The notes below the pieces were generated by a model. It had not been told where the DNA came from, made no database searches, and was given only the letters and a program-made list of their open reading frames with translations. This document shows positions 1,130-18,132 of a stretch of 24,860 nucleotides of DNA, piece by piece. The stretch lies in assembly GCA_964359185.1 (NCBI GenBank), contig CAYHSB010000005.1:1-24860 (forward strand), read 5' to 3'. This DNA comes from an uncultured Chitinophagales bacterium (GTDB taxonomy: Bacteria > Bacteroidota > Ignavibacteria > UBA10030 > JAHEZR01). The position numbers were made by a program, and so were the translations under genes. Position 1 is the stretch's first letter, and each line of letters starts with the position of its first letter.

Positions 1130-4100
1130 TCATTCCCAATTGAACTTGCCACGCTTCTTCGGATGATTACCGATTTCGTCCATTGTTGCGCCATCGTAGA
1201 GCCTACCGTTCTTCATGAGGTAACGGATGGATTCGCTGTTCCGAATCTCCTCTAGTGGATTTTTCTCCATGACGATGAGATCGGCGAGCTTCCCCGCCTC
1301 AAGCGAGCCGAGATCCTTCTCTAAGCCTATGTATTGTGCCCCATACAGAGTTGCACAACGTATAGCCTCAAGAGGGCTCATCCCACCCTGGACAAGCATC
1401 CATAACTCCCAGTGAGCACCGAGCCCTTGCAATTGACCATGTGCGCCGAGTTGTACCTTAGCGCCCGCGTCGAACACCTTTTTCGCTGCTTTCGCATTCT
1501 CAATGTAGTTGAAATCGTCTTCTTCTGCCATCATTCGACGACGAGAGCGAGCGTCGATGATCTCTCTCGGAGTAAATCTCAGGAGCCGCTCGTTATCCCA
1601 TACCTTCGTCTTCATGTACCAGTAATTCTCTCCCCATAGCCCGCCGTAGCTGACGATAAGCGTTGGTGTATATCCAGTTTTACTCATTGCGAGCAGAGTG
1701 TTTGCGTCTTTGTACATTGGAGAGACCGGTATTGAATGCTCGATGCCAGTATGTCCATCTAAGATCATGGACATGTTCCAGAAAAAGGTCGAACCCCCTT
1801 CGGGCACGACCATCATTTTGAGTGCCCGTGCCGCCTCAATGATCTGCTGTCGTTGATCTCGCCTTGGTTGGTTGTAGCTCTTCACCGTAAAGGCACCAAC
1901 AGCCTTGAGCCGACGGAGATGCGACATTGCATCTTCGAAGTTACTAATGACTGCTTTGATGGAACCCTCGGCACCGTACAGAATTGTTCCTGTCGAGTAA
2001 AGACGTGGGCCGGCCATCAGACCCGCCTTGATCAGCTCAGAGTTTGAGAAGACCATCTCTGTGCCTGACGAGGGGTCATGGGAAGTCGTCACACCGAACG
2101 CTAGGTTTGCATAGTATCCCCAATGCGTCTGAGGCGTGACGTTATTACTTCCGGTTCCGATGTGGGCATGTACATCGATCATCCCTGGCATGATAAATTT
2201 CCCCGAAACGTCGACGCGCTTCGCGTCAGGAGGAATCTCGATAGCTGTCGAGGGGCCAATTGCTTTGATGCGATTGCGCTCTATGAGTATCGTAGCTCCC
2301 GGGATAACTTGATCGCCTTGCATCGTTATCACTGTCGCACCAGTCAATGCTAAAGTTCCAGTCGGGTTGTCAGTGTCGGCTGTGAAGCCAACGTACAATC
2401 CCGTTGTATCAGGCTTCTCTTGAACGCTATCCTTTGCGCCATCAACAAACTTGAAAGTATTTGTGAGTTCTCGGGAGTACAACTCAGAACCCAATGACCA
2501 ATAAAGCTTTTTGCTGTCTGGCGACCAGTTCAGATACGTGCCGGCGTCGCGCGTAATCTTTTTGATTGGATAGTCAGCAGTAATCGGGCCAATATTTACA
2601 GCCTGTCCAGTTTCCGGGAAGACCGCAATGTAGGCGTTATATCGCTCCACCAATGCCACCCACTTTTCGTCTGGAGAAGGTACGATTTGCTGCGCGTTAT
2701 CCGAAAGAAGATGGACTCTCCGCTTTTCGCCGCTTAACCCGACGCTCGCGAGGGCAGTCTTTTCCCCTTCATTCGTGAGGAGAAAGATTCGCTCGCCAGT
2801 TCTGTTGAACATGGGTCGAGAACCTTCTTCCGTAATCAGCGTCGGTTTCCCACCTTCGGCCGGAATCCAATAGATACCTGTTTCTTTGCTGTACGTACGC
2901 CCACGAAGTCCATCACCTCCAGCTCTTCGAAAGACGATCTTCTTTCCGTCAGAAGAGAATTGAGGTTCAACATAATGCCCCATGCGGCTCGTCAGTTTTG
3001 TTTGGTTGCTTCCGCTCGGCTGAACTTTCCAGACGGCGCCTTTCTCCTCATCATTCCAAGTTGCGTATACAATCCACTTCCCGTCGGGAGAGAAAGAAGG
3101 ATAGTATTCAAAGTTCTCAGAATCCTTGGTGATGCGTTTCGGTGTGCCATCTGGAAGATCTCTGATGTAAAGTTTCCCGAGTGCGGTGTAGATAACGGAC
3201 CTCTGGTCGGGAGAGACGGTTACCCATCGCAGCATCTTCACATCGAACTTCTCTGGGGCTACCTCCTGTGGAAAACGCACTGCCTCCGTGATCGTCTGCT
3301 TCACATGAACTTTAAAAGGAATCTGAGCGGCCTCTCTCCCGCCCGAACCACCCAGCCCGACAGAGTCGGTCTGGCGGGCTTGGCGGGCGGGCGTTTGAAC
3401 ATCAACGCTCCAGATATGTCCCCTTGCGGAGATTACAATGCTCTTCCCATCCGGTGTCCAAGAAAACCCTGGATGCACGCCGAACATTGCCCACGTTTCT
3501 TGTGCATCGCGGTTGAGGTTGTCATAGATCGGGGATTCTCTCCCCCTCTCGATATCATAAAGATAGAGGACCGTTTTTAATCGGAAACGTCGAACGAAAG
3601 CGATAGTCTTTCCATCCGGTGAGACCTGAGGTCGGACTGAACCTCCCTCGCCGTTGATGAATTGTTCGGTCTTTCCGGTTTGAAGATCGAGACGTTGAAT
3701 AACGTAGATAACGCCATTCGGATCTTTGTTGTATTGGAATCCACCTCCCGGACTCACATCTTCACTGTAATAGAGGTATCGACCGTCTGGGGACAGACAT
3801 GGCTCGCCAGCATCTTGCTCCCAGTTGCGGCGCTTCGTGAGCTGGAGGCCGTCACCCCCGCCGATATGGTACAGCCACATCTCGCCCGCCCCAAGAGATC
3901 GGGTGTTGCGGTAATGTTTACGTGCAACAAGGTATTTACCATCCGGTGTCCAGATGGCGTTGTTCGTCTGCCGTTCTTTTTCCTTCGTGATTTGTTTCGA
4001 ATTCTTACCATCGACATCCATGACCCAGATATTGTCGCATCCGTCTCGATCACTGGTGATTGAAATCTTTCGCCCGTCCGGACTGAAGCGTGGTTGGACT

Positions 4101-17570: not shown

Positions 17571-17700
17571 ACAAAGAGGTCAAGCTGGTCCCGCAAAGCG
17601 AGACCGACTGTGTCACACGAAACGATTTGCCGACCGTTGCTTCCTTCCGGACCTGGCGGGGTTGAGCAACGTTCCGTTGCACAGGACTTGACCTCTTTGT
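17571..17700 (-). ncRNA. ffs: Signal recognition particle RNA (4.5S-type)
   Basis: Minus strand has the domain IV motif GCCAGGUCCGGAAGGAAGCAACGG, enclosed by a perfect 14-bp terminal helix ACAAAGAGGUCAAG/CUUGACCUCUUUGU. Ends approximate. Confidence 0.9.
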
Positions 17701-17791
17701 GTCGTCCACGTATTGCGAAATGAAAAGCTCTTTCGACAGAAAAACCCTTCTGCTACCACACTCACAGATGCTTCCCGACTTGTGACGGTTG

Positions 17792-17863
17792 TGGAGCTGA
17801 GGGGACTTGAACCCCCAACCTTTCGGATGCGAACCGAACGCTCTCCCATTGAGCTACAGCCCC
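17792..17863 (-). tRNA. tRNA-Ala(CGC); CCA not encoded
   Basis: Full cloverleaf: GGGGCTG/CAGCTCC acceptor with G3:U70, GCTC/GAGC D-stem, TTCGG-TT CGC AT-CCGAA anticodon arm, GGGGG-TTCAAGT-CCCCT T-arm, A73, then CAA. Confidence 0.97.
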
Positions 17864-17885
17864 TATGGACAACTCCAAGGTCAAT

Positions 17886-17986
17886 AGGGGATTGAACTTT
17901 TCTTCCCTATGTCCCAACCTTCCCCCTGCAAGCGGGATGCTCTCCCTACGAGTCCACGCCTCTTAGGCCATTGAGCTACCCTACGG
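17886..17986 (-). pseudogene. Degenerate tRNA-Ala(TGC)-like element with insertions
   Basis: Colinear blocks match the adjacent tRNA (GTAGCTCAATGG, GGGAGAGC, AAGGTTGGG, GTTCAA-TCCCCT) around TCCCG-CT TGC AG-GGGGA. It has D-loop and T-arm insertions and no acceptor stem. Confidence 0.6.
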
Positions 17987-18103
17987 GTCTTCTCTACGAG
18001 ACCGCAGGTCGACCCGAAGCGCCGTAGACAACCCCATCCATCCTCTATATTGAGGTATTGTTTGAAGATACACAAGACGGATATGGGACAAAAATCGTGT
18101 CGG

Positions 18104-18132
18104 AATATAGCAAGAAAAGCGGAGAGAGTCAA
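18104..18132 (-). promoter_or_regulatory. sigma70-type promoter for the tRNA/SRP transcript
   Basis: Minus strand TTGACT (18132-18127), 17-nt spacer, TGc-TATATT (18109-18104). Confidence 0.6.

What the first reader, a model, noticed from the sequence alone, without database searches (positions are those of the whole stretch)
17886..17986. Insertion-bearing tRNA-Ala(TGC)-like copy just upstream of the real tRNA-Ala(CGC)
About 22 nt upstream of the tRNA, four blocks repeat it in order: GTAGCTCAATGG (17968-17979 vs 17846-17857), GGGAGAGC, AAGGTTGGG and GTTCAA(G)TCCCCT. The anticodon arm has the same length but reads CT-TGC-AG. There is a ~23-nt D-loop insert (CCTAAGAGGCGTGGACTCGTAGG, with its own GCCT/AGGC stem), a ~14-nt insert in the T-stem, and no acceptor stem. 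Plain decay rarely keeps motif blocks intact while adding two inserts, so it may be a repurposed tRNA mimic, a fusion of tRNA remnants, or an integration scar. Function is unproven.
Basis: partly seen in the sequence, partly recalled or inferred. Interest (0 to 1): 0.6.

Follow-up and report, generated by a model that had tools for sequence, protein, structure and literature searches.

The report
Hairpin-plugged dead tRNA-Ala copy
The odd tRNA-like stretch is a dead spare copy of the alanine tRNA gene, broken up by small DNA hairpin elements; it is most likely the gene-less leftover of a small selfish nuclease cassette that settles in tRNA genes of this bacterial group and that I found described in no paper.

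Summary
The four blocks shared with tRNA-Ala(CGC) score 38.25 in local alignment against 16.5±2.6 for shuffles.

The feature is larger than reported. Its 5' acceptor half, GGGGTTG (18029-18035), lies 50 nt further upstream, cut off by a palindromic element (17979-18028).

The 23-nt D-loop insert is a decayed copy of a hairpin "plug". In other Ignavibacteriales genomes this plug sits at the same D-loop site (TGG|GAGAGC) in spare tRNA copies.

Most of those spare copies lie next to a ~90-aa GIY-YIG nuclease gene, which in turn abuts the working tRNA. Some have no such gene, for example G031 at this same tRNA-Ala(CGC)–ffs operon.

Three relatives (G001, G002 and a metagenome contig) have the promoter, tRNA and ffs but no spare copy.

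My reading is a non-functional relic of such a cassette, nuclease gene lost, carried in the tRNA leader transcript. It is not a tRNA mimic.

This scan has noted the same class of cassette on other DNA many times. I found no published description; the closest known systems are Ssn/SRM nuclease-hairpin pairs, phage T4 SegB and REP elements.

The divergent anticodon arm (TGC) and the T-arm insert remain unexplained.

The parts
18104..18132 (-). Sigma-70-like promoter (TTGACT-17-TATATT) of the tRNA-Ala(CGC)–ffs operon
   Evidence: Promoter scan. The sequence is conserved in G001, G002 and the metagenome contig L065.
18029..18035 (-). 5' acceptor half of the dead tRNA copy (GGGGTTG)
   Evidence: Read from the sequence. 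It lies 68 nt after the -10 box, where the tRNA starts in relatives (72 nt). ARAGORN uses it as the acceptor after in-silico removal of the inserts.
17979..18028 (-). 50-nt composite palindromic element between tRNA positions 7 and 8: module B (GACCTGCGGTCTCGTAGAGAAGAC) nested in module A (TCTACG..GGGTCGA..AGACCCGTAGGG)
   Evidence: It is 88-92% identical to copies in G002, G038 (three copies) and G222. Module A exists without B. Module B alone is an 18-nt insertion in a LeuRS gene. This copy folds weakly (-8.6 kcal/mol, z = -0.64, against -14.6, z = -3.8 for the G002 copy), so it is decayed.
17968..17978 (-). Positions 8-19 of the dead copy (TAGCTCAATGG: D-stem 5' strand and D-loop)
   Evidence: Identical to the neighbouring tRNA.
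17945..17967 (-). 23-nt decayed hairpin plug in the D-loop (CCTAAGAGGCGTGGACTCGTAGG)
   Evidence: It sits at the same site (TGG|GAGAGC) as the 16-48-nt plugs in nine spare tRNA copies of other genomes and aligns with them. It shares GACTCGTAG exactly and about 75% overall with the 24-nt short form (alignment A2). BLAST alone finds no significant match.
17913..17944 (-). D-stem 3' strand, anticodon arm (anticodon TGC at 17928-17930), variable loop and start of the T-stem of the dead copy
   Evidence: The anticodon arm differs from the neighbour at 9 of 18 positions. No tRNA in 120 genomes of the order comes within 3 mismatches of it.
17898..17912 (-). 15-nt insert in the T-stem (ACATAGGGAAGAAAA), origin unknown
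   Evidence: No significant match anywhere. Plugs do occur at about this position in other spare copies (G002, G222, G058), but this sequence cannot be assigned to them.
17886..17897 (-). T-loop and T-stem 3' strand of the dead copy (GTTCAATCCCCT)
   Evidence: 12 of 13 positions match the neighbouring tRNA.
17864..17885 (-). Degenerate 3' acceptor region and spacer (22 nt); no nuclease gene
   Evidence: There is no open frame here. tblastn with two GIY-YIG proteins finds nothing in the window.
17791..17863 (-). Working tRNA-Ala(CGC)
   Evidence: ARAGORN; Rfam RF00005, 69.4 bits.
17594..17693 (-). 4.5S/SRP RNA gene (ffs) of the same operon
   Evidence: Rfam RF00169, 59.2 bits.

Best explanation
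The stretch 17886-18035 (minus strand) is a dead, nearly full-length spare copy of the neighbouring tRNA-Ala gene. It lies in the leader between the operon promoter and the working tRNA-Ala(CGC), and small palindromic DNA elements ('plugs') have been set into it.

It is most likely the leftover of a selfish cassette that is common in Ignavibacteriales. In complete copies, a ~90-aa single-domain GIY-YIG nuclease gene sits directly against a working tRNA gene (or ffs) on the same strand. On its far side lies a partial or whole duplicate of that RNA gene, with hairpin elements interrupting its loops. The RNA gene therefore stays functional, and in the 5' form the nuclease gene is read from the tRNA promoter.

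In this window the nuclease gene is gone and the plugs and the copy are decaying.

Shown:
- the anatomy;
- the plug family and its site;
- the link with GIY-YIG genes in other genomes;
- absence of the copy in close relatives;
- independent mobility of the 18-nt module.

Inferred:
- that a nuclease-bearing cassette made this copy;
- that the hairpins are the nuclease's recognition sites, by analogy with Ssn/SRM;
- that the relic is transcribed with the leader, cut away by RNase P and RNase E/G, and has no function.
For: (1) The tRNA-derived blocks are far beyond chance, and a cloverleaf reappears once the three inserts are removed.

(2) The D-loop insert lies at the same TGG|GAGAGC site and aligns with the plug TCTACGA(CTCTACGA)GTCGTAGACTCGTAGAG. 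That plug is found in spare copies of tRNA-Ala, tRNA-Gly, tRNA-Thr and others in G009, G117, G225, G074, G169, G142, G059, G239 and G031.

(3) The 50-nt element also sits in the anticodon loop of the spare tRNA-Ala(GGC) fragment beside a GIY-YIG ORF in G002.

(4) GIY-YIG ORFs occur in 207 of 277 genomes of the order. In 26 of 30 fetched loci they lie next to tRNA genes on the same strand, most abutting them. At least 14 of these loci have interrupted partial duplicates on the far side. The close homologues of the G009 ORF that have a called tRNA nearby all sit at tRNA-Ala(CGC) or tRNA-Ala(GGC).

(5) The same operon carries the complete form in G009, G124, G117 and G074. G031 carries a gene-less form very like this window: a plugged copy, about 30 nt of spacer, then tRNA-Ala(CGC) and ffs.

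(6) The window's own genome has a complete cassette of another plug type on contig C138.

(7) G001, G002 and L065 keep the promoter, a 72-nt leader, the tRNA and ffs, without the copy.

(8) The plugs here are degraded, and the leader shows no excess folding stability.
Against: - No trace of a GIY-YIG ORF remains in the window. A cassette origin therefore rests on analogy with other genomes.
- The own assembly (67% complete) holds no Ala-type GIY-YIG gene.
- The anticodon arm (TGC) differs from the neighbour at 9 of 18 positions while the other blocks are nearly identical. A simple local duplicate does not predict this.
- The T-arm insert cannot be tied to any plug.
- No genome of the same genus is available, so neither the gain nor conservation within the lineage can be dated.
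- A Y1 transposase whose gene is flanked by CCCCTACGGGG hairpins is also present and could move these palindromes instead.
Confidence: 0.72

Rival explanations
1. This is a plain tandem duplication of tRNA-Ala. The redundant upstream copy was later hit independently by mobile REP-like palindromes, moved by the IS200/RAYT-like Y1 transposase, with no GIY-YIG cassette ever present at this locus.
For: No ORF remnant is present. The own genome has a Y1 transposase gene (C112:99-569) flanked by CCCCTACGGGG and CCCTATCGGG hairpins, and the G167 copy is flanked by six such REPs. Module B moves on its own into a LeuRS gene. GTAG-tagged REPs are known to insert into palindromes and ORFs (PMC3733652).
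Against: The plug sits at exactly the D-loop site used in copies that adjoin GIY-YIG genes. Fragments beside these genes are plugged almost without exception although the plugs are rare in each genome (1-11 copies of module B). The Y1 protein fails NCBI's RAYT model (36.7 bits against a cut-off of 80) and passes the IS200 model.
Confidence: 0.15
2. The stretch is a functional tRNA-like RNA: a mimic, a decoy, a processing or regulatory element of the tRNA-ffs leader, or an immunity scar that protects the locus from re-invasion.
For: It is transcribed by position, lying between the promoter and the tRNA. The tRNA blocks are strikingly intact, and the anticodon arm keeps a 4-bp stem and a canonical 7-nt loop with two double (compensatory-looking) differences from the neighbour.
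Against: It is absent from G001, G002 and L065. There is no Rfam or ARAGORN signal. Fold z = -1.2. The acceptor stem is degenerate and lacks G3·U70, and the hairpins are decayed.
Confidence: 0.06
3. The arrangement is an assembly artefact of a metagenome bin: a chimeric join of repeated tRNA and palindrome sequences.
For: The genome is a fragmented MAG (185 contigs, 67% complete), and repeats invite misjoins.
Against: The same architecture recurs in independent assemblies from different studies and assemblers. Both flanks are syntenic with relatives. The plugs carry their own substitutions.
Confidence: 0.04
4. The stretch is a real tRNA-Ala(UGC) gene interrupted by three intervening sequences that are removed from the RNA.
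For: A cloverleaf with anticodon UGC appears after removing the inserts. No tRNA-Ala(UGC) is found in the incomplete assembly.
Against: No known bacterial mechanism splices such inserts. The acceptor stem is poor and lacks the G3·U70 alanine identity pair. The same plugs sit in plainly truncated fragments elsewhere. rRNA-operon tRNAs are often simply unassembled in MAGs.
Confidence: 0.02

Closest known systems
Ssn nucleases with their NTS/SRM hairpin repeats (Chenal et al. 2025, PMC11893778)
   Same: Both involve small single-domain GIY-YIG proteins whose genes are flanked by 20-50-nt hairpin repeats. The repeats are also scattered through the genome, and the gene-plus-hairpin layout resembles a mobile element.
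   Different: That paper never mentions tRNA (0 occurrences). Here the hairpins sit inside duplicated pieces of tRNA or ffs genes, and the gene abuts a working tRNA. The hairpin sequences differ (CTACG/CGTAG against CGTCATTCCCGCG...). Copy numbers are low. Membership of the Ignavibacteriales proteins in cd10448 was not testable; their closest solved relatives are UPF0213 proteins. The window itself has no nuclease gene.
Phage T4 SegB, a free-standing GIY-YIG homing endonuclease in a tRNA gene cluster (PMC2330249)
   Same: A GIY-YIG nuclease gene lodged among tRNA genes, inherited together with the flanking tRNA sequence.
   Different: SegB is a larger phage protein, with no hairpin plugs and no duplicated, interrupted tRNA fragment. 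Homing is not shown for the cassettes here.
GTAG-tagged REP elements and REPINs with RAYT transposases (PMC3733652, PMC3116915)
   Same: Both are short palindromes carrying CTAC/GTAG. Both nest inside other palindromes and can sit in frame inside genes, including aminoacyl-tRNA synthetase genes. A Y1 transposase gene flanked by similar hairpins is present.
   Different: Copy number is low, with no REP arrays at this locus. The elements show a specific D-loop site in tRNA copies and a link to GIY-YIG genes. The Y1 protein scores as IS200, not RAYT.
tRNA gene fragments left by integrated elements (van der Gulik et al. 2023, PMC9897764)
   Same: Both are non-canonical partial tRNA copies lying next to an intact tRNA as by-products of mobile DNA.
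   Different: Those are att-type direct repeats of integrase-bearing elements or CRISPR-related fragments. Here there is no integrase, the copy is nearly full length, and it is interrupted by hairpins.
Rickettsia palindromic elements (RPE; Ogata et al. 2000, cited from my own knowledge and via PMC3733652)
   Same: Both are palindromic elements able to sit in frame inside essential protein genes and within RNA genes.
   Different: RPEs are 100-150 bp and unrelated in sequence. They are not tied to tRNA duplicates or to nuclease genes.

Membership tests
tRNA (Rfam RF00005) | Covariance-model score at or above the 29-bit gathering score, or an ARAGORN call | tested here: not met
   No match at 17864-18040 even at E up to 10, and no ARAGORN call. 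There is only a relaxed-threshold call after three inserts are removed in silico.
tRNA-Ala | G3·U70 pair in an intact acceptor stem | tested here: not met
   In ARAGORN's relaxed fold, G3 pairs with C, and the stem has 4 G·U pairs of 7.
tRNA-embedded GIY-YIG/hairpin cassette (class seen in this scan; I found no paper on it) | Small GIY-YIG ORF between the spare copy and the working tRNA | tested here: not met
   Only 22 nt separate the two. tblastn finds no GIY-YIG remnant in the window. Gene-less examples exist elsewhere: G031, G142, G059.
tRNA-embedded GIY-YIG/hairpin cassette | Working tRNA with a duplicate of itself on the same strand close by | tested here: met
tRNA-embedded GIY-YIG/hairpin cassette | Family-specific hairpin plug set into a loop of the duplicate | tested here: met
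   The D-loop plug is at the same site and aligns with nine others. The 50-nt element is shared with the G002 cassette.
tRNA-embedded GIY-YIG/hairpin cassette | Present or absent among relatives at the same locus | tested here: met
   Absent in G001, G002 and L065. Present in other families: G009, G117, G074, G031.
Ssn/SRM (Chenal 2025) | Nuclease belongs to CDD cd10448 and cuts single-stranded DNA at its hairpin | not testable with these tools
   No CDD search or assay is available. Pfam gives PF01541. The closest solved structures are UPF0213 proteins 1zg2 and 1ywl.
REP/RAYT (REPtron) | Palindromes flank a RAYT-type Y1 transposase gene | tested here: inconclusive
   Y1 transposase genes flanked by CCCCTACGGGG-type hairpins are present. 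However, NCBIfam's RAYT model gives 36.7 bits against a cut-off of 80, and the IS200 model gives 73.7 against 55. The plug sequence is related only through CTACGG.
REP/RAYT (REPtron) | High copy number of extragenic repeats | tested here: not met
   The own 1.57 Mb assembly has 18 loci with CTACG..CGTAG pairs, against 6-7 pairs for the control motifs. Module B has 1-11 copies per genome.
Integrase att-site tRNA fragment | Integrase-bearing island between the intact tRNA and its repeat | tested here: not met
   Only 22 nt lie between the copy and the tRNA. The neighbours are hrcA-grpE-dnaJ and RNase G.

The most novel reading that the evidence does not exclude
The hairpin plugs may be the recognition sites of tRNA-gene-specific GIY-YIG nucleases. 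On that reading, cassette, plug and spare copy form an undescribed class of selfish element that parasitises tRNA and SRP-RNA genes and their promoters. The gene-less plugged copy kept in this leader would then not be inert: it would act as a target-site immunity scar or decoy that shields the adjacent working tRNA gene from renewed cutting or invasion.
Probability: 0.1. Interest if true: 0.7.

Novelty: new variant of a known kind. Interest (0 to 1): 0.45.

Why it matters
The stretch itself is probably junk, but it marks a widespread and, as far as I could find, unpublished way in which tiny nuclease-plus-hairpin elements live inside essential RNA genes without killing them.

- **Annotation.** Such plugged copies confuse tRNA annotation and inflate or distort tRNA gene sets.
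- **Gene expression.** They sit in the leaders of highly expressed operons.
- **A tool lead.** The plug family here is lineage-specific (Ignavibacteriales), modular, and able to enter protein genes in frame. It offers natural site-specific hairpin/nuclease pairs of the kind now sought as single-strand DNA tools.

Tried and rejected
- **Rfam.** Gathering and E ≤ 10 scans found no family for the stretch.
- **rRNA-spacer origin.** I first suspected the upstream element came from an rRNA spacer or tmRNA. I rejected this once its copies proved dispersed and unrelated to any Rfam family.
- **Source of the TGC anticodon arm.** No tRNA within 3 mismatches in 120 genomes of the order. The G002 tRNA-Ala(UGC) has a different arm. 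No exact match in IMG/VR.
- **BLAST of the inserts.** The D-loop and T-arm inserts gave only chance-level hits against the own genome and all loci. The D-loop insert was placed only by its site and by alignment with known plugs.
- **Interrupted working tRNAs.** Excising every CTACG/CGTAG cluster in the held sequences restored no complete tRNA, so I found no interrupted functional tRNA.
- **Sequencing adapter.** I considered an adapter or artefact origin for the near-invariant 22-mer. I rejected it because the 22-mer occurs only in Ignavibacteria-type MAGs from many studies, among 185,579 species.
- Only one close metagenomic relative could therefore be fetched.
- **Literature.** Searches found no description of the cassette.

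Full report
**Setting.** The window comes from an Ignavibacteria-type member of Bacteroidota (HrcA relatives; record titles). The assembly has 185 contigs and is 67% complete.

On the minus strand lie, in order:
- a sigma-70-like promoter, TTGACT-17-TATATT (18132-18104);
- a leader of about 230 nt;
- tRNA-Ala(CGC) (17863-17791);
- the 4.5S/SRP RNA gene (17693-17594);
- RNase G and transaldolase genes.

hrcA-grpE-dnaJ run the other way.

**The observation.** A local alignment of the leader against the real tRNA scores 38.25. 1000 dinucleotide shuffles gave 16.5±2.6 (maximum 29), and 2000 random windows of the same genome reached at most 32. Neither ARAGORN nor Rfam, even at E = 10, sees a tRNA there.

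One point needs correction. The 5' acceptor half is not missing. GGGGTTG (the real tRNA has GGGGCTG) lies at 18035-18029, and a 50-nt palindromic element (18028-17979) separates it from position 8. GGGGTTG starts 68 nt after the -10 box. In the relatives G002, G001 and the metagenome contig L065 (HrcA 76% identical), the tRNA itself starts 72 nt after the conserved -10 box, and there is no extra copy. The dead copy therefore occupies the ancestral tRNA slot and is specific to this lineage.

When the three inserts are removed in silico, ARAGORN at a relaxed threshold draws a tRNA-Ala(TGC) cloverleaf. Its D-arm is perfect, its anticodon stem has 4 bp and its T-arm is usable. Its acceptor stem is poor: 3 Watson-Crick and 4 G·U pairs, with no G3·U70.

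**The 50-nt element.** Copies 88-92% identical occur in G002, G038 (three) and G222. The element is modular.
- Module A (TCTACGACCCTATCGGGTCGA..AGACCCGTAGGG) exists alone in G267, G117 and G183.
- Module B (GACCTACGGTCTCGTAGAGAAG) is nested in A.
- With up to 3 mismatches, B occurs in 26 of 277 genomes of the order, at 1-11 copies each. A reversed-pattern control gave none.
- The exact 22-mer occurs in 31 stretches among 185,579 species, all from Ignavibacteria-type MAGs of many studies. It is therefore biological and lineage-specific, not an adapter.
- B moves on its own. The LeuRS gene of G058 carries a clean 18-nt in-frame insertion (GACCTACGGTCTCGTAGA) that is absent from congeners G057 and G056 and from G048. 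It also lies in frame in other long ORFs.

The own genome holds 18 loci with CTACG..CGTAG palindromic pairs, against 6-7 pairs for the control motifs. The window's copy is decayed. It folds at -8.6 kcal/mol (z = -0.64), against -14.6 (z = -3.8) for the G002 copy.

**Link to tRNA copies and a nuclease gene.**
- In G002 the element sits in the anticodon loop of a displaced 3' fragment of tRNA-Ala(GGC). The fragment follows the intact tRNA and a ~90-aa GIY-YIG ORF (PF01541), and a second palindrome sits in its T-loop.
- In G009 the same operon as in the window reads: 5' fragment of tRNA-Ala(CGC), positions 1-31, with a 32-nt palindrome (TCTACGACTCTACGAGTCGTAGACTCGTAGAG) in the D-loop; then the GIY-YIG ORF; then the intact tRNA; then ffs.
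- A homologue search found such ORFs in 207 of 277 genomes, up to 17 per genome, some in tandem arrays.
- In 26 of 30 fetched loci the ORF lies next to a tRNA gene on the same strand, in most cases abutting it. Where a tRNA is called beside a close homologue of the G009 ORF, it is always tRNA-Ala(CGC) or tRNA-Ala(GGC).
- In at least 14 loci the far side of the ORF carries a partial duplicate of that tRNA. It is split by inserts of 15-70 nt at loop positions: D-loop 16-19, anticodon 35, T-loop 50-56.
- The SRP RNA gene is a target too (G267).
- The window's own genome has a complete cassette, with another plug type, on contig C138.

**The D-loop insert.** By BLAST it matches nothing. It does lie at exactly the site used by the plug, TGG|GAGAGC. 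When aligned with nine plugged copies, it shares GACTCGTAG exactly and about three quarters of the 24-nt short form.

The pattern GTAGCTCAnnTGG|TCTACGA occurs with at most one mismatch in 11 genomes, on Ala, Gly, Thr and other tRNA copies. Several of these have no nuclease gene.

G031 is the closest analogue to the window. It has a plugged, T-loop-truncated tRNA-Ala(CGC) copy, about 30 nt of spacer, then the intact tRNA-Ala(CGC) and ffs. G074 has a full-length plugged copy beside the ORF.

**Interpretation.** The window holds a gene-less, decaying example of this cassette's plugged spare tRNA. It is transcribed by position with the leader and, I infer, removed during processing of the tRNA and 4.5S RNA. 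The leader has no excess folding stability (z = -1.2).

The mechanism of the parent element is inferred from two precedents:
- Ssn proteins are single-domain GIY-YIG nucleases that cut single-stranded DNA at hairpin repeats flanking their genes (PMC11893778).
- T4 SegB is a GIY-YIG homing endonuclease inside a tRNA cluster (PMC2330249).

That the plugs are the nuclease's sites is not shown. A Y1 transposase whose gene is flanked by CCCCTACGGGG hairpins is also present and could move them. It scores as IS200, not RAYT. GTAG-tagged REPs are known to nest in palindromes and to enter ORFs (PMC3733652).

**Unexplained.**
- The anticodon arm (TCCCG CUUGCAG GGGGA) differs from the neighbour at 9 of 18 positions, including two double changes that keep pairing, while the other blocks are nearly identical.
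- No tRNA in 120 genomes of the order comes within 3 mismatches of it. The family's tRNA-Ala(UGC) arm is different, and IMG/VR has no exact match.
- The 15-nt T-arm insert has no relative.

**Earlier notes and literature.** After I had reached this pattern, the scan's notes showed that the same class had been reported on many other genomes, including gene-less relics in tRNA leaders of Bacteroidota. One of those notes gave me the lead to the Ssn paper.

Noticed in passing
window 3338-3391: A 54-bp GC-rich palindrome that another first-reader note says is in frame in an amidohydrolase gene. Its sequence is unrelated to the CTACG family. I only read the sequence.
   Followed up: partly
own genome contig C138:1-400 (minus strand): A complete cassette: a tRNA 5' fragment (GGAGCGTGGCGCAG|60-nt double hairpin|CCCGGTAGCGCACTT), a GIY-YIG ORF (C138:43-270), and the start of the intact tRNA at the contig end. 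The plug is of the type seen at tRNA-Pro genes elsewhere.
   Followed up: partly
L162 1500-2051 (G267:C92): The SRP RNA gene (ffs) is followed by a GIY-YIG ORF and then a duplicate of the ffs 3' end interrupted by module A. These cassettes therefore also target ffs.
   Followed up: partly
L047 1500-1520 (G058:C43): An 18-nt module B inserted in frame in the leucyl-tRNA synthetase gene (reads TTYGLVEK), with empty sites in three relatives. Similar in-frame copies lie in an 806-aa ORF (L036) and a 406-aa ORF (L043).
   Followed up: yes
L227 1200-2100 (G167:C11); L224 1-700 (own genome C112): IS200/RAYT-like Y1 transposase genes flanked by small hairpins AGGTCGnCCCTACGGGnC, six copies around the G167 gene. 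This is a REPtron-like layout in Ignavibacteriales.
   Followed up: partly
G186:C11:166339-168626; G207:C8:377848-378778; G187:C11/C12: Tandem arrays of three to six GIY-YIG ORFs with a period of about 350-410 nt, presumably repeated tRNA-plus-nuclease units.
   Followed up: no
L053-L060, L064 (several genomes): Module B often sits inside another palindromic repeat, GTCATTGCGAGG...AGCAATC...CTCGCAATGAC. This suggests nesting of one palindromic element in another.
   Followed up: no
L273 1250-1460 (G031) and L261 1580-1700 (G074): A second plug type, TGCGCCARAGGCGCA, follows GGTTC (T-loop) in tRNA-Ala fragments both upstream and downstream of the intact tRNA.
   Followed up: no
L236 970-1290 (G232:C20): Three tandem repeats of a plugged tRNA-Ala(CGC) 5' fragment (1-17|21-nt hairpin|17-33 plus a second hairpin) precede the intact tRNA, with the GIY-YIG ORF downstream of it.
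   Followed up: no
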